Positions 46,442 through 49,749 of a stretch of 64,000 nt of DNA are shown here, piece after piece. The stretch comes from a virus, in IMG/VR virus record IMGVR_UViG_3300050821_018577, positions 1 to 64,000 of that record; one strand, 5' to 3'. A program made the position numbers and the translations under genes. Each line of letters starts with the position of its first letter. Positions within the stretch are counted from its first letter, which is position 1. The notes below the pieces were generated by a model that was not told where the DNA came from, did not search any database, and saw nothing but the letters and a program-made list of their open reading frames with translations.

Positions 46442-46752
46442 GATTCCGCCCTGTCACCTAGCGTTAGAGGCTTATTCTCCCCGTATCCCTTGCGACCGAG
46501 CTCGGTTAGGGGGCCCTAGTGCCATTTCGGGCCGATGAAGGGCTTGCCTCCGCCTGTTGGCACCGTCAGAGCAGCAAGGTCAATTCCTTTTCAGCCAGCC
46601 GCGTGCTGCCGTTTAAGGCGACGCGATTGCGCTGTCACGCTCTGCAAAGCTTCGAAGGTGTCCGGGATCGTTTCACTCGGTCCCCGCCTTGACTTCAAAC
46701 GGGAGATGCGTCTCTGCCCGGCACACGGTGCGCTCGCGCGGAGTATACACCT

Positions 46753-46801
46753 AAAAAGACCGGCGCGGGAAGAGGTCGGAGTTCTTCGGAACCGCGCCGG
46801 T
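46753..46801 (-). terminator. putative intrinsic terminator
   Basis: 10-bp stem ACCGGCGCGG/CCGCGCCGGT followed by CTTTTT on minus. Confidence 0.55.
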
Positions 46802-46837
46802 ACGTTGTGTCCCTCTTGGAGCAACAGATTGACAGAA

Positions 46838-46867
46838 ATCCTATTGCAAACTTACAGGCTAAGTCAA
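46838..46867 (-). promoter_or_regulatory. candidate promoter with operator
   Basis: TTGACT-18-TAGGAT on minus; CTTAC-AGG-CTAAG at 46851-46863. Confidence 0.55.
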
Positions 46868-46908: not shown

Positions 46909-47037
46909 GAGTGGTTGAAGTTGAGTTTGGGAGCTTCGAAGTGTGTTTAACGCGACGGTCGAACCGCCAAAGGCACCAAACATTCCGAAGCCAAGCAAAG
47001 AGATTTTGGCAGCCAAATGCACCACCGTCAAGGAATT

Positions 47038-47115
47038 TGGAGCGCCTGACGGGATTCGAACCCGCAACCCTTCGCCCTAGGAGACGAATGCTCTGCGCAG
47101 TTGAGCTACAGGCGC
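47038..47115 (-). tRNA. atypical tRNA (Arg-CCT-like) with 8-nt anticodon loop CUCCUAGG
   Basis: GCGCCTG/CAGGCGC acceptor, T73, encoded CCA, T-loop TTCGAAT, anticodon stem TTCGT/GCGAA, D-loop lacks GG. Confidence 0.75.
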
Positions 47116-47166
47116 TCGGAGGAATATTTTTTATTCTTATAGGAACAAAAAATATTCCTGAAAACT

Positions 47167-47219
47167 TGGCGCCGGAGTCCCACTTAAGGGCACGCAGCAC
47201 TAGCAGCCGCGCCTCCGGC
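47167..47219 (-). ncRNA. 53-nt CCA-ended D-armless tRNA-like element
   Basis: GCCGGAG/CTCCGGC stem + G + CCA; 7-bp hairpin with loop TGCTAGT; short CCC-TTAAGT-GGG hairpin. Confidence 0.45.
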
Positions 47220-47723
47220 ACTGGCTCGCCCGGTGTGACTTGAACACACATCGTCAGCTTTAGAGGCTGCTGCACTGGCCGGTTGTGCTACAGGCGAACT
47301 GAAATCTGGAGCCGCTGGCAGATTACGAGTCTGCGGCCTCTCGGTTAAAACCGAGTGCTCTTTATCGGAAGAAACTTCCGGTCGATGCTGAGCTACAGCG
47401 GCGTGGTTGTAAACTCGATAGTTGGCCAGCGCCTTGCGCTGCTCGCCGGCGATCGGGCTCGTCGCAATTGCGGTGAGCTCGTCATTGAAGTCAGGCTCGT
47501 GCCAAGAAAAATGCGGGATGTTATTGGCGCATAGCTTTGCTTCCGCGCGGCGAAGCGACGCCAAGTGCGGCAGGCCAATCAAAACCATATTGGGAATTCC
47601 TTCTTCACAACGAAGCGAGGCAACGTGGAAGGAGGCATGAGCGGTCTGAATAATTTGCGCAGGGATGGGGATGTCGGTTCGAACGAACAGGAAAACGTAG
47701 CGGTCGTCGCTTATCTATGTCAT
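47184..47723 (-). CDS. PTH2-like (peptidyl-tRNA hydrolase) protein with in-frame TAG at codon 3; frame runs into tRNAs
   Basis: ATG ACA TAG ATA...YVFLFVRTDIPIPAQIIQTAHAS...WHEPDFNDELTAIA; in frame with track ORF 47184..47588. Confidence 0.65.
47222..47297 (-). tRNA. amber suppressor tRNA (anticodon CTA)
   Basis: 76 nt cloverleaf: TCGCCTG/CGGGCGA, D-arm GCAC/GTGC with GG, loop CT-CTA-AA, T-arm GTGTG-TTCAAGT-CACAC, G73, CCA. Confidence 0.88.
47307..47402 (-). tRNA. degenerate Lys(TTT)-like tRNA with enlarged D-loop
   Basis: GCCGCTG/CAGCGGC + T + CCA; 6-nt loop TTTTAA; D-loop carries extra CGGAAG/CTTCCG hairpin; T-loop CTCGTAA. Confidence 0.55.
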
Positions 47724-47729
47724 GGTCAA

Positions 47730-47759
47730 ACTGTGCCAGAACTGCGGATTCGGTGTCAA
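47730..47759 (-). promoter_or_regulatory. candidate promoter giving a leaderless PTH2-like/tRNA transcript
   Basis: TTGACA-18-(TGn)CACAGT, 6 nt before ATG 47723; no SD. Confidence 0.45.
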
Positions 47760-47761
47760 CT

Positions 47762-47797
47762 AAAAACCGAAGCGCCGTTCACACGCGGCGCCTCGGT
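47762..47797 (-). terminator. terminator after terminase gene
   Basis: ACCGAGGCGCCG/CGGCGCTTCGGT stem then TTTT on minus. Confidence 0.6.
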
Positions 47798-47914
47798 CAT
47801 TACTTCCTATCCCCGCAGAGAGTCTATCATGGAACCTTCCAATTTTCGAACGGTTGCTCTTGCGCTCGCGGCCACCAGCGGACACGCAAACCGCGGAAGC
47901 CAGGGATCACGAAC

Positions 47915-48078: not shown

Positions 48079-49749
48079 TTATTTTTCCAATTGAATTCGT
48101 CTGCCGCCGAGCGGTCGCTGAATTACTTGCGTGCAATCATAATTTTGACCGCAATGATTACAGTGACGGGAATTTGCAATGGTGACCTGCATCGTGACTT
48201 CATTGCAGTTCGGGCACCTCGGCGTTTGGTCGTTGGTCATGACAGCGGCCAATGATGTCGCGCCAGCCACTTTTTCAAGCGACGTGGTCTTTCCGGTCAC
48301 GGTGTTAGTAAAAGTGACCCGGCCAACCAGCGGCGGAGCATCATCGCCATTGCGAACCGGTGTTCTTGGTATTGGTTGACGTCCCATCATTTTCTCCGCG
48401 CGTCCGGACTTAAACAAATCGAGCAGCCCTAGGGCCCCGGCGCCGGAGAGCTCCGTTCCTACCCAGACCATGGCGTCAAGTCGGTTCGGCGATTTTTGTC
48501 CTGGCTGTGCGCAATAGCTGACCAATTCTTCTTCGAGCGCAGAAAACTCGGTACATTGAGGCTTGCCGCAACTGCAAACCAGGTGCATTTTGTTTTGCTG
48601 GAACAGCGCAAGGATCGGCTCGGCGCGCACCAGCTTGCCGCGGGATGCGCTCACATCATGGTAAGAGACGTTTTCATCCACATTGCGGATGGTCTCTTCA
48701 ACCATGTCCCCACCGTAGTTTCTCTCAGCGATGATGCGGTCAGCTGCGTAGCCGTAGTAGGTGCGGATGGCCGTGGTCGCCCAATCCCGCGGCCGCGCTG
48801 CGCGCATGGAATCGTCGTGGAGAATGTAGATATGCCCGTCCTCGCCTTCACCGCCGGTCATGATGCCTACTTCGGTCATGTTGCCGCCAGAAGGATCGAT
48901 GCCCACTACGATGCGCCGCAAACGAATCTCCTGGTCGCTGGTCAACAATGAGCCGGCATTGTAGCTGGCGGTCACGCGGCTATCCTCGATAATTTTCCGC
49001 GTCCACAACGCACCGGGAATCTCTTCGGTGTCCTCGGCCAGAATTTCTTGCCGATAGGCCAGCGAACTCATGTTGTGGGTGACTTCCTCGAGGCCTTCTT
49101 TTGAAAGATGTGGATTGGCGGAACTCGGGAAATGCAGGCACAGCCACAATGGGTCGTTCTTGTACTTCTTGAACATCTTGGCGGCGTGCTGCGGATCTCG
49201 GGCTTTGCTGGCGCTGCGCGTCTCAAGCGATGGTGGCGTGTAAATGAACACCACGTCGCCGTTGTTATCAATCAGCATGGGCGCGCCGACTTCGGTCCAT
49301 GCCGTTTCATCCATCATCTGGTATTCATCGAGAATCAAAAGGTCGGCATAATCACCGCGAAGCGTTTCGGCGTTGAACGCGGTCTTTGCCCGTATTCTGC
49401 GGTCGGTGCCGCGCTGTTCGATGATGTGTTCGGTTTCGTTTTTATACAGCCGGCCAAAGGCGATTGGTTCATCGAGAGCCAGCAGCACTTCTTTCCAGAA
49501 TTTCTTCACCTGGTCGATCGTGGGCGCGGCGTAGAGCACGCGCTTGCCTTTGAGAAATTGTTCCACAGCAAGGATTGCTGAACCAGTCGTCTTTCCAGAG
49601 CGTCTTCCAGCGCGAATGATTTTTCGTTTAAGTGGCGACCGGCAAAATCGCAACTGATATGGATTGTCCGCGGGATTGCGCAGATTGATTTTGAACTGCT
49701 GGGGCTTTGGCGCTTCGGCGTCTGGCGGAATTATGGGATTGGAAGCCAT
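48079..49749 (-). CDS. terL: terminase large subunit with C-terminal Zn-ribbon extension
   Basis: Walker A AGRRSGKT, Walker B LILDEY, nuclease VVGIDPSG, SPNRLDAMVW. Confidence 0.9.
   Translation of the reverse strand: MASNPIIPPDAEAPKPQQFKINLRNPADNPYQLRFCRSPLKRKIIRAGRRSGKTTGSAILAVEQFLKGKRVLYAAPTIDQVKKFWKEVLLALDEPIAFGRLYKNETEHIIEQRGTDRRIRAKTAFNAETLRGDYADLLILDEYQMMDETAWTEVGAPMLIDNNGDVVFIYTPPSLETRSASKARDPQHAAKMFKKYKNDPLWLCLHFPSSANPHLSKEGLEEVTHNMSSLAYRQEILAEDTEEIPGALWTRKIIEDSRVTASYNAGSLLTSDQEIRLRRIVVGIDPSGGNMTEVGIMTGGEGEDGHIYILHDDSMRAARPRDWATTAIRTYYGYAADRIIAERNYGGDMVEETIRNVDENVSYHDVSASRGKLVRAEPILALFQQNKMHLVCSCGKPQCTEFSALEEELVSYCAQPGQKSPNRLDAMVWVGTELSGAGALGLLDLFKSGRAEKMMGRQPIPRTPVRNGDDAPPLVGRVTFTNTVTGKTTSLEKVAGATSLAAVMTNDQTPRCPNCNEVTMQVTIANSRHCNHCGQNYDCTQVIQRPLGGRRIQLEK

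What the first reader, a model, noticed from the sequence alone, without database searches (positions are those of the whole stretch)
47038..47759. Amber-gated PTH2-like gene in one transcript with its own suppressor tRNA: candidate translational switch
Seen: on the minus strand a terminator (47762-47797) is followed by TTGACA-18-TGnCACAGT and, 6 nt later, ATG ACA TAG ATA AGC GAC... The frame after the TAG (47715-47717) reads YVFLFVRTDIPIPAQIIQTAHAS...HEPDFNDELTAIA, which has the N-terminal beta-strand and Q-x-x-H-A pattern of PTH2-type hydrolases, so the track ORF (start 47588) lacks the family's N-terminus. The domain has no stop of its own: it reads on through three tRNA-like elements to 47184, one of which is an intact CUA tRNA. 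TAG is otherwise an ordinary stop in this window. Established: two-codon minigenes cause peptidyl-tRNA drop-off that Pth relieves, and RNase P cleavage at a tRNA 5' end inside a CDS would leave a non-stop mRNA. Inference: full-length hydrolase is made only when the co-transcribed suppressor is mature, giving a feedback circuit that couples tRNA processing, amber readthrough and ribosome rescue.
Basis: partly seen in the sequence, partly recalled or inferred. Interest (0 to 1): 0.88.

Follow-up and report, generated by a model that had tools for sequence, protein, structure and literature searches.

The report
Amber-gated hydrolase gene beside suppressor tRNA
In a 179-kb soil phage that otherwise uses the normal genetic code, a small enzyme gene related to peptidyl-tRNA hydrolase carries a stop codon (TAG) as its third codon and runs straight into the phage's own TAG-reading tRNA; about 75 related phages share this layout, so it looks like a natural switch in which the tRNA controls synthesis of the enzyme.

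Summary
On the minus strand a terminator and a TTGACA-type promoter are followed directly by ATG ACA TAG. The same frame then encodes a 102-residue domain that folds as PTH2 (pLDDT 90.5; TM 0.72-0.77 to archaeal Pth2 and human Bit1). The domain has no stop of its own. The frame runs through a 96-nt aberrant tRNA-like element, a canonical tRNA(CUA) and a 53-nt mini-tRNA, and ends at a TAA inside the mini-tRNA.

Comparison with related phages settles most of the interpretation:
- In 75 of 77 distinct loci the first in-frame upstream stop is TAG.
- 73 have an in-frame ATG 1-8 codons before the TAG, served by a leaderless-type promoter or by a Shine-Dalgarno site.
- The base after TAG is a purine in 75 of 75.
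- 50 of 75 have no ordinary start codon before the invariant N-terminal strand.
- 54 of 65 loci with enough flank carry a tRNA(CUA) downstream on the same strand.
- One of the two distinct loci without a TAG has tRNA-Arg(UCU) there instead; the other lacks enough flank to tell.

The phage genome itself uses the standard code.

Best reading: an amber-gated PTH2-like enzyme co-transcribed with its own suppressor. Its substrate, the purpose of the missing stop codon and any feedback loop remain inference. I found no prior description. The scan's earlier notes on this stretch are first-reader notes only.

The parts
47765..47798 (-). Intrinsic-terminator-like hairpin plus T-run that closes the upstream terminase transcript
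   Evidence: 13 pairs, 9 G-C, T-run. The terminase large subunit ORF 48079-49749(-) matches phrog_2 at 2.6e-29.
47730..47759 (-). Sigma-70-type promoter: -35 TTGACA (47759-47754), 18-nt spacer, extended -10 TGnCACAGT (47738-47730). The ATG starts 7 nt after the -10, with no Shine-Dalgarno site, which implies a leaderless mRNA.
   Evidence: Sequence. In 39 of 70 homologous loci a TTGAC box lies 34-41 nt upstream of the equivalent ATG. The transcription start itself was not measured.
47715..47723 (-). ATG ACA TAG: start codon, Thr codon and in-frame amber codon (the gate), followed by A (ATA)
   Evidence: TAG is conserved in 75 of 77 distinct loci, ATG lies 1-8 codons upstream in 73 of 75, codon 2 is Thr in 48 of 56, and the +4 base is a purine in 75 of 75.
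47409..47714 (-). PTH2-like domain, 102 codons from ISDDRYVFLFVRTD to ANYRVY, with no stop codon at its end
   Evidence: AF2 pLDDT 90.5, pTM 0.84. Foldseek top hits are Pth2/Bit1 at TM 0.72-0.77. 14 of 21 members hit Pfam PTH2 weakly. Invariant residues F10, R12, Q23 and H26 lie upstream of any canonical start.
47184..47408 (-). Continuation of the same reading frame through the RNA genes to the first in-frame stop, TAA 47186-47184
   Evidence: In the close subfamily, homologs likewise read 20-100 codons into the downstream tRNAs.
47307..47402 (-). 96-nt tRNA-like element with a perfect acceptor stem and CCA, a hairpin inserted in the D-loop, and a 6-nt anticodon-type loop UUUUAA
   Evidence: Sequence and fold. 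Neither ARAGORN nor Rfam calls it. The homologous element in L002 has loop UUCUAA and scores 39 bits as tRNA.
47222..47297 (-). Canonical tRNA with anticodon CUA (amber suppressor), with encoded CCA, U1:A72 and G73
   Evidence: ARAGORN, Rfam 57.8 bits, cloverleaf MFE fold.
47167..47219 (-). 53-nt mini-tRNA without a D-arm: 7-bp acceptor stem, 7-bp hairpin with loop UGCUAGU (CUA centred), 3-bp hairpin with loop UUAAGU that contains the ORF's TAA, then NCCA
   Evidence: Present in 24 distinct loci, and the ORF stop lies in it in 18. RNAalifold finds compensatory changes in 13 of 13 pairs.
47120..47160 (-). AT-rich 12-bp hairpin between the mini-tRNA and the last tRNA. It has no T-run and its role is unknown.
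   Evidence: Sequence. It appeared only as a sub-threshold Rfam hit.
47038..47115 (-). tRNA with an 8-nt anticodon loop CU-CCUA-GG
   Evidence: ARAGORN and Rfam 54.2 bits. A similar 8-nt loop (UCUA) occurs in L016.

Best explanation
This is a short, probably leaderless transcript in a standard-code phage. It is both the precursor of amber-suppressor tRNA(s) and the mRNA of a PTH2-fold enzyme.

Translation starts at the 5'-terminal AUG and meets UAG at codon 3. If release factor 1 acts, only Met-Thr is made. If a tRNA(CUA) decodes the UAG, the ribosome goes on to make the whole domain. That tRNA is encoded a few nucleotides after the domain on the same transcript. The enzyme is therefore produced only once mature, charged suppressor tRNA has built up. 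In circuit terms this is a coherent feed-forward AND gate, and a built-in read-out of the balance between suppressor and RF1.

What is shown: the anatomy, its conservation, the fold, and the link between TAG and CUA tRNAs.

What is inferred:
- The tRNA really reads this UAG.
- The enzyme cleaves an ester bond on a tRNA. The most likely substrate is peptidyl- or N-blocked aminoacyl-tRNA generated during suppression or drop-off, possibly the suppressor tRNA itself.
- In the subfamily without its own stop codon, translation into the tRNA genes competes with tRNA excision on the same RNA molecule.
For: (1) Conservation of the gate. TAG is the upstream in-frame stop in 75 of 77 distinct loci, never replaced by TAA or TGA where a CUA tRNA is present. 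An in-frame ATG lies 1-8 codons upstream in 73 of 75, even though the intervening peptides differ (MT, MKPER, MRPDR, MIHDL and others).

(2) That ATG is the real start. Close members have TTGAC 34-41 nt upstream and no Shine-Dalgarno site. Many of the more distant members have AGGAG 6-9 nt upstream of the same ATG.

(3) Readthrough is required. 50 of 75 loci have no ATG, GTG or TTG between the TAG and the invariant strand F-x-R-x-D, and the invariant residues F10, R12, Q23 and H26 lie there.

(4) Sequence context. The +4 base is a purine in 75 of 75 loci, including non-start codons (ACT, ACC, GAC, AAC, GGC, GCT). From my own knowledge (Bossi 1983; Miller and Albertini 1983), a 3' purine favours amber suppression.

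(5) Link to the decoder. A tRNA(CUA) lies downstream on the same strand in 54 of 65 loci with at least 300 nt of flank, and it starts -1 to +13 nt from the domain end in 26. L020/L089 has no TAG and carries tRNA-Arg(UCU) at that position.

(6) Not general recoding. Coding density under code 11 is 90% and there is no excess of TAG-split genes. My scan for N-terminal gates of this layout found no TAG candidate in the 179-kb genome, but its coding-score filter also failed to recover this gene.

(7) PTH2 fold.
Against: - No expression data exist.
- 25 of 75 loci have a canonical start after the TAG, and in 7 of them it is ATG or GTG immediately after. Those members could bypass the gate by reinitiation.
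- The codon after TAG is AUN or GUN in 68 of 75 loci, which also fits a weak start codon.
- The catalytic Lys of Pth2 is not conserved (it aligns with H, A or Q) and Pfam PTH2 scores are below threshold, so hydrolase activity is unproven.
- The CUA tRNAs have mixed acceptor identity, so the inserted amino acid is unknown.
- A distant member (P0122/L107) has no TAG yet still lies near a CUA tRNA. The enzyme-tRNA link therefore does not depend on the gate.
Confidence: 0.72

Rival explanations
1. Mini-ORF with reinitiation. AUG-ACA-UAG is a separate two-codon upstream ORF (a bar-like minigene or ribosome-loading site). The enzyme is made by ribosomes that terminate at UAG and restart at the adjacent AUU, AUC, AUA, AUG or GUN codon, independently of any suppressor.
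For: The codon after TAG is AUN or GUN in 68 of 75 loci, and is ATG or GTG in 7. Two-codon ORFs dominate (56 of 75). From my own knowledge, adjacent stop-start coupling is common in bacteria.
Against: Reinitiation works with any stop codon, yet TAG is used in 75 of 77 loci against about 24% expected. Non-start codons follow the TAG in at least 7 loci, and GTA or GTT in 7 more. All that these codons share is a purine at +4. The model does not explain the CUA tRNA in 54 of 65 loci, or its absence in the one locus without a TAG. Conservation of Thr at codon 2 across all four Thr codons fits a residue of the final protein.
Confidence: 0.12
2. Suppressor homeostat. The gate works as negative feedback rather than as an on-switch. 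When suppressor is abundant, ribosomes read through the UAG and, finding no stop, run into the tRNA genes. This blocks tRNA folding and RNase P/Z processing on that transcript. The enzyme produced may also deacylate or recycle the suppressor. Amber readthrough is thereby held at a level that spares the phage's own 61 TAG-terminated genes.
For: In the close subfamily the tRNA 5' end lies -1 to +13 nt from the last domain codon in 26 loci, and no stop intervenes. The first stop lies in a conserved loop of the mini-tRNA in 18 of 24 loci that carry one. TAG is a normal stop for about 23% of the phage's ORFs, so uncontrolled suppression would be costly. The enzyme stays associated with CUA tRNAs even in a member without the gate.
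Against: This is pure inference, with no data on processing or on the enzyme's substrate. Distant members have their own stop codon and a tRNA about 600 nt away, often with another gene in between. Ribosome invasion therefore cannot be the function of the whole family.
Confidence: 0.1
3. Decaying or incidental ORF. The region is only a leader of a tRNA precursor, or a pseudogene inactivated by a nonsense mutation, or the TAG is an assembly error.
For: No canonical start for the full domain and no stop codon. Pfam gives no significant hit for the window's copy.
Against: 17 columns are invariant and mean column identity is 49% across 21 members that are 42-64% identical to the window's copy. The fold prediction is confident. 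The profile search finds 860 representative clusters at E<=1e-10. The same TAG is present in 75 independent assemblies.
Confidence: 0.02
4. The phage, or a block of it, uses code 15 (TAG = Gln), and this gene is simply one recoded gene among many.
For: CUA tRNAs are present, and one pipeline called a homolog under TAG=Q (P0030).
Against: Coding density under code 11 is 90%, against 91% with TAG read as sense. 61 of 261 ORFs end in TAG. TAG-split coding pairs are not enriched, and the gate scan returned no TAG candidate.
Confidence: 0.03

Closest known systems
Pth2 / PTRH2 (Bit1), the archaeal and eukaryotic peptidyl-tRNA hydrolase 2 (Pfam PF01981)
   Same: Same small alpha/beta fold (TM 0.72-0.77 to 3erj, 2zv3, 1q7s, 1wn2 and 1xty). 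Shared signature R-x-D-L ... Q-x-x-H-A at the N-terminus. A conserved acidic residue (E-P-D) aligns with the D-A-G Asp in the profile alignment to 24bt. The domain ends at the same point as Pth2.
   Different: Scores are below the Pfam threshold (best E 0.0022). The Lys reported as catalytic in Sulfolobus Pth2 (own knowledge) is not conserved. The family is almost entirely phage-borne, with only 2 MAG hits among 185,579 genomes. It is amber-gated and physically fused to tRNA genes. Activity is untested.
Stop-codon-recoded (code 15) phages with suppressor tRNAs (bioRxiv 10.1101/2021.08.26.457843; 10.1101/2022.01.06.475225; PMC10879173)
   Same: A phage-encoded tRNA(CUA), in-frame TAG in a phage gene, and the idea that the suppressor times gene expression.
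   Different: In those phages many (late) genes are recoded and TAG stops acting as a stop. Here the genome uses the standard code and a single small gene next to the tRNA carries one TAG at codon 3-10. The habitat also differs: the related contigs carry soil and peat metagenome names, and some sit in binned MAG records, including a palsa Gemmatimonadetes MAG.
Jumbo phage XacN1 and similar standard-code phages with orphan CUA suppressor tRNAs (PMC5852040)
   Same: Standard code, a large tRNA set, two tRNA(CUA) genes and a peptidyl-tRNA hydrolase gene in one genome. The authors found no target for the suppressors.
   Different: No gate or adjacency was reported there. This finding offers a candidate target that in-silico readthrough of annotated stop codons would miss, because the TAG sits upstream of the annotated start.
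prfB (RF2) autoregulatory in-frame UGA
   Same: An early in-frame stop codon inside a translation-related gene acts as a sensor of how efficiently that stop codon is read (own knowledge).
   Different: prfB escapes by +1 frameshifting and senses a release factor. Here escape would be by a suppressor tRNA in the zero frame, and the product is not the decoder itself.
Lambda bar minigenes and Pth (own knowledge); synthetic amber-gated feed-forward circuits (PMC7969014)
   Same: The two-codon ORF AUG-NNN-stop is the classic producer of peptidyl-tRNA drop-off that Pth resolves. The synthetic 'leak dampener' uses the same logic, with the target gene carrying amber codons and the suppressor tRNA co-induced.
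   Different: bar minigenes are free-standing and end in UAA or UGA. Here the minigene is in frame with a hydrolase ORF and always ends in UAG. The circuit is natural and both parts sit on one transcript.
Mitochondrial tRNA punctuation
   Same: An ORF abuts a tRNA 5' end with no complete stop codon, so tRNA excision defines the mRNA 3' end (own knowledge).
   Different: No partial T or TA stop is available for completion by polyadenylation (the mRNA would end in ...AAC CAC). This is a bacterial-type system, where a non-stop mRNA would recruit tmRNA.

Membership tests
PTH2 (PF01981) peptidyl-tRNA hydrolase 2 | Pth2 alpha/beta fold | tested here: met
   AF2 model with pLDDT 90.5. The ten best Foldseek PDB hits are Pth2/Bit1 chains or the related Atu0240, with probability 1.00 and TM 0.61-0.77.
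PTH2 (PF01981) peptidyl-tRNA hydrolase 2 | Sequence match above the Pfam gathering score | tested here: not met
   No hit for the window's protein. 14 of 21 members give weak hits, best E 0.0022. The PDB profile hit to a peptidyl-tRNA hydrolase has E 0.036.
PTH2 (PF01981) peptidyl-tRNA hydrolase 2 | Catalytic residues (Lys and Asp of Sulfolobus Pth2; own knowledge) | tested here: inconclusive
   The invariant E73/D75 (E-P-D) aligns with the D-A-G Asp. The Lys position aligns with a variable H, A or Q, next to a near-invariant Gln. No residue-level structural superposition was available.
PTH2 (PF01981) peptidyl-tRNA hydrolase 2 | Hydrolysis of peptidyl-tRNA | not testable with these tools
   Needs an enzyme assay.
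Code-15 (TAG=Gln) recoded phage | Suppressor tRNA(CUA) encoded by the phage | tested here: met
Code-15 (TAG=Gln) recoded phage | Many genes with in-frame TAG, and poor coding density under code 11 | tested here: not met
   Density is 0.903 under code 11 and 0.913 with TAG read as sense. 61 of 261 ORFs end in TAG, and there is no excess of TAG-split pairs.
Leaderless mRNA | Transcript 5' end at the A of the AUG, with no Shine-Dalgarno site | tested here: inconclusive
   Promoter geometry fits: the -10 ends 6 nt before the ATG, TTGAC lies 34-41 nt upstream in 39 of 70 loci, and 50 of 70 have no SD-like motif. The transcription start was not measured.
Two-codon minigene (lambda bar type) | AUG, one sense codon, then a stop | tested here: met
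   56 of 75 loci fit; the remainder have 2-8 sense codons.
Two-codon minigene (lambda bar type) | Causes peptidyl-tRNA drop-off and toxicity when Pth is limiting | not testable with these tools
   Needs genetics.

The most novel reading that the evidence does not exclude
The cassette is a self-contained translational homeostat for nonsense suppression. One RNA carries a UAG sensor at codon 3, an effector enzyme that acts on acylated suppressor tRNA or on drop-off products, and the suppressor tRNA genes themselves. Ribosomes that pass the sensor then invade those tRNA genes, because the ORF has no stop codon. Translation and tRNA maturation of the same molecule are therefore mutually exclusive. 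This would let a standard-code phage keep a fixed, sub-lethal level of amber readthrough, for example to corrupt host termination or to evade a defence, without wrecking its own TAG-terminated genes. The mini-tRNA and the tRNAs with 6-nt or 8-nt loops would act as further decoys or substrates.
Probability: 0.15. Interest if true: 0.93.

Novelty: new variant of a known kind. Interest (0 to 1): 0.82.

Why it matters
Suppressor tRNAs are often found in phages that use the standard code, and their purpose has been unclear. The XacN1 authors, for example, could find no target gene (PMC5852040). Here there is a conserved, specific client gene, and it sits where annotation pipelines cannot see it: upstream of any callable start. 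About a third of the database calls for this family are N-terminally truncated.

If confirmed, this would be a natural single-gene amber gate wired to its own tRNA on one transcript. Synthetic biologists built this same logic independently (PMC7969014). It would also tie a PTH2-fold enzyme functionally to nonsense suppression in bacteria-infecting viruses.

The finding gives a directly testable system for several questions:
- how phages tune the competition between release factor and suppressor;
- what happens when an ORF is fused to a tRNA without a stop codon;
- what the D-armless mini-tRNAs do.

The family is large (860 clusters at E<=1e-10) and almost entirely viral.

Tried and rejected
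- **General TAG recoding of the phage.** Tested and rejected. ORF density, stop-codon usage and codon-usage scoring of stop-separated in-frame pairs gave no signal.
- **Other amber-gated genes in the 179-kb genome.** My scan for ATG within 10 codons upstream of a stop, followed by a long start-less coding frame, found 0 TAG, 2 TAA and 2 TGA candidates. The scan is crude, and its coding-score filter also missed the PTH2-like gene itself because that frame runs through tRNAs.
- **Pfam and PHROG naming.** Pfam gave nothing for the window's protein. PHROGs gave only phrog_34073, of unknown function.
- **Literature.** Three full-text searches found no paper describing an amber-gated PTH2-like gene next to a suppressor tRNA. 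This does not prove that none exists.
- **Which amino acid the tRNA(CUA) inserts.** The window's tRNA has U1:A72, G73, G3:C70 and G10, which look Gln-like (own knowledge of GlnRS identity). However, it is not especially similar to the phage's own tRNA-Gln. Across loci the 1:72 and 73 positions are heterogeneous, so I make no call.
- **A sigma-54 reading of the TGGCA motif before the ATG.** Only a few closely related loci fit it, and all of those also have TTGACA at sigma-70 spacing. Dropped.
- **Quadruplet decoding of UAGA or UAGG at the gate by the 8-nt-loop tRNAs.** The anticodons do not match their own gates (window: CCUA against UAGA; L016: UCUA against UAGG), and the frame would be lost. 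Dropped.
Full report
**1. What is in the window**

The window is the first 64 kb of a complete 178,858-bp phage record. It carries 34 tRNA matches, most of them in an array at 134-161 kb.

On the minus strand the terminase large-subunit gene (48079-49749; phrog_2, 2.6e-29) is followed by a terminator-like hairpin at 47798-47765. After that come, in order:
- TTGACA at 47759-47754, then 18 nt;
- TGnCACAGT at 47738-47730, then six nt;
- ATG ACA TAG at 47723-47715.

The frame behind the TAG is open for 176 codons, to TAA at 47186-47184. The only ORF in it with a canonical start begins at 47588, 42 codons into the frame.

ARAGORN and Rfam find a canonical tRNA(CUA) at 47222-47297 and a tRNA with an 8-nt loop (CCUA) at 47038-47115. 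By sequence and folding there are two more elements:
- a 96-nt tRNA-like element at 47307-47402, with a hairpin in its D-loop and a 6-nt loop UUUUAA;
- a 53-nt CCA-ended mini-tRNA at 47167-47219, which contains the ORF's TAA.

**2. The protein**

Pfam gives no hit for the window's copy. Even so, the 102 residues from just after the TAG to ...ANYRVY align with 20 phage homologs, giving 17 invariant columns. Several of these (F10, R12, Q23, H26) lie upstream of the first canonical start.

- AlphaFold2 on that alignment gives pLDDT 90.5 and pTM 0.84.
- The best Foldseek matches in the PDB are archaeal Pth2 proteins and human Bit1/PTRH2, with TM 0.72-0.77 and probability 1.00.
- A profile search of PDB sequences finds a peptidyl-tRNA hydrolase at E 0.036. 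It aligns the R-T-D-L...Q-x-x-H-A signature, and places the family's invariant E-P-D on the D-A-G motif.
- 14 of 21 members hit Pfam PTH2 weakly.
- The nearest ESM Atlas clusters are viral, with PTH2 annotated on 23-60% of their members.

The fold claim holds. Formal Pfam membership and the catalytic Lys do not, so enzymatic activity is plausible but unproven.

**3. The amber gate is the hallmark of the family**

I fetched 22 viral, 80 metagenomic and 2 MAG loci using peptide patterns that lie inside the domain, so the sampling is blind to the N-terminus. I analysed the 102 viral and metagenomic loci together with the window's own copy. After removing duplicates, 77 distinct loci remain.

- The first in-frame stop upstream of the domain is TAG in 75 of 77, against about 24% expected from the genome's stop-triplet counts.
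- An in-frame ATG lies one codon (56 loci) or 2-8 codons (17 loci) before the TAG. The intervening peptides differ between lineages, so selection is acting on the TAG and not on a fixed nucleotide motif.
- Close relatives have TTGAC 34-41 nt upstream of that ATG and no Shine-Dalgarno site. Many of the more distant relatives have AGGAG 6-9 nt upstream of the same ATG. In both cases this identifies the ATG as the initiation codon.
- 50 of 75 loci have no ATG, GTG or TTG between the TAG and the conserved first strand.
- The base after the TAG is a purine in 75 of 75 (A in 64, G in 11). This includes codons that cannot serve as starts (ACT, ACC, GAC, AAC, GGC, GCT, GTA, GTT). To my knowledge a 3' purine is the classic context for efficient amber suppression.
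- Codon 2 is Thr in 48 of 56 loci, spread over all four Thr codons. That fits a residue of the finished protein.

**4. The link to CUA tRNAs**

Of 65 TAG-gated loci with at least 300 nt of downstream sequence, 54 have an ARAGORN tRNA(CUA) on the same strand downstream, and many have two. In 26 loci it begins -1 to +13 nt after the last codon of the domain. Some of the remaining loci carry aberrant CUA-containing loops, or a CUA tRNA upstream.

The only well-sampled locus without a TAG (L020 = L089) has tRNA-Arg(UCU) at that position.

The association goes beyond gating. A distant member with a normal 36-residue N-terminal extension and no TAG still has a CUA tRNA 850 nt downstream.

A database protein beginning 'MTQI' turned out to be a TAG=Q gene call. 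Another 'MTQ' protein has ATG ACA TAG directly upstream of its ATG.

**5. This is not genome-wide recoding**

Under code 11 a greedy ORF set covers 90% of the genome, and 61 of 261 ORFs end in TAG. Reading TAG as sense raises coverage by only 1%. In-frame coding pairs separated by a single stop are no more common for TAG (5) than for TAA (3) or TGA (4). A scan for further N-terminally gated genes found none with TAG, although its coding-score filter also failed to recover this gene itself. On this evidence the PTH2-like gene is the only recognisable client of the suppressor in this phage.

**6. The missing stop codon**

In the close subfamily (about 43% identity or more) the frame continues 20-100 codons into the RNA genes. 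The tRNA 5' end usually sits directly after the last domain codon, so RNase P cleavage would leave an mRNA that ends at the domain boundary with no stop codon.

The first in-frame stop lies in the UUGAGU or UUAAGU loop of the mini-tRNA in 18 of the 24 loci that have this element.

The mini-tRNA is a genuine structured RNA, with compensatory changes in all 13 predicted pairs.

Distant members (41% identity or less) have their own stop codon at about 103-115 codons, and their CUA tRNA lies about 600 nt downstream. In several of them a conserved unknown gene of about 160 residues sits in between, and homing-endonuclease genes are inserted in others. The missing stop is therefore a subfamily trait. 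Its function, whether competition between translation and tRNA maturation, tmRNA-mediated turnover, or simple tolerance, remains open.

**7. Mechanism and rivals**

The best-supported model is an amber-gated enzyme whose synthesis depends on the suppressor tRNA made from the same transcript.
- Reinitiation after a two-codon mini-ORF explains the frequent AUN codon. It does not explain the exclusive use of TAG, the universal purine at +4, or the CUA tRNAs.
- Pseudogene, assembly error and code-15 explanations are contradicted by the conservation and coding statistics.
- A negative-feedback homeostat version is attractive but is inference only.

**8. Novelty**

Three full-text searches found recoded gut phages, theta ribozymes next to suppressor tRNAs, a synthetic amber feed-forward circuit, and a jumbo phage whose CUA tRNAs had no identifiable target. 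None described this arrangement.

The family is large: 2036 representative clusters at E<=1e-3 and 860 at E<=1e-10. It is nearly absent from bacterial genomes, with 2 MAG hits.

The earlier notes of this scan on the same stretch are first-reader notes, with no follow-up.

Noticed in passing
47167-47219 (-), and 23 other loci (e.g. L004:3379-3431, L006:3388-3440): A conserved 50-57-nt mini-tRNA without a D-arm: acceptor stem, a hairpin whose 7-nt loop centres CUA (or a GGCA tetraloop variant), a stub T-arm and NCCA. All 13 predicted pairs show compensatory changes. Its function is unknown; it could be a decoy, a processing signal or a minihelix substrate.
   Followed up: partly
47038-47115 (-); L016:3450-3523; L019:3516-3590: The downstream tRNAs of the cassette vary in anticodon-loop size around a CUA core. 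Loops of 8 nt (CCUA, UCUA) and 6 nt occur in several phages.
   Followed up: partly
L002:3536-3632, L003:3449-3551, L004:3443-3538: tRNAs of 96-103 nt carrying two tandem anticodon-type arms, each preceded by AGAGCA. The first arm has a CUA loop and the second a UUA-type or other loop. Rfam scores them at 56-62 bits as tRNA. The window's 96-nt element (47307-47402) looks like a degenerate relative.
   Followed up: no
47120-47160: A perfect 12-bp AT-rich hairpin in a 54% GC genome, between the mini-tRNA and the last tRNA. There is no T-run on either strand. It may be a processing site.
   Followed up: no
Same genome outside the window, G000:C1:134529-134602 (+): A tRNA-like gene with anticodon UCA (opal type), its own TTGACA promoter and an unpaired acceptor stem (Rfam matches only model positions 5-66). 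The phage thus carries elements whose loops could address UAG, UGA and, through the UUUUAA loop element, UAA.
   Followed up: partly
L096:482-967, L087:765-1250, L086:639-1106, L093:1559-2119, L088:1232-1642: In the distant subfamily a conserved protein of about 135-185 residues (motif SRWGFHPC...) sits between the gated PTH2-like gene and the next tRNA, which is CUA where ARAGORN called one. The two copies scanned (L096, L093) have no Pfam or PHROG family. It is a possible functional partner.
   Followed up: partly
L094:1808-2449, L091:670-1119: HNH and endonuclease VII genes (homing-endonuclease type) are inserted directly after the PTH2-like gene in some loci.
   Followed up: no
46838-46867 and 47003-47031 (-): Two further sigma-70-like promoters lie downstream of the cassette on the same strand, leading into a stretch without a convincing ORF (46442-46867). 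Rfam found nothing there at E<=1.
   Followed up: no
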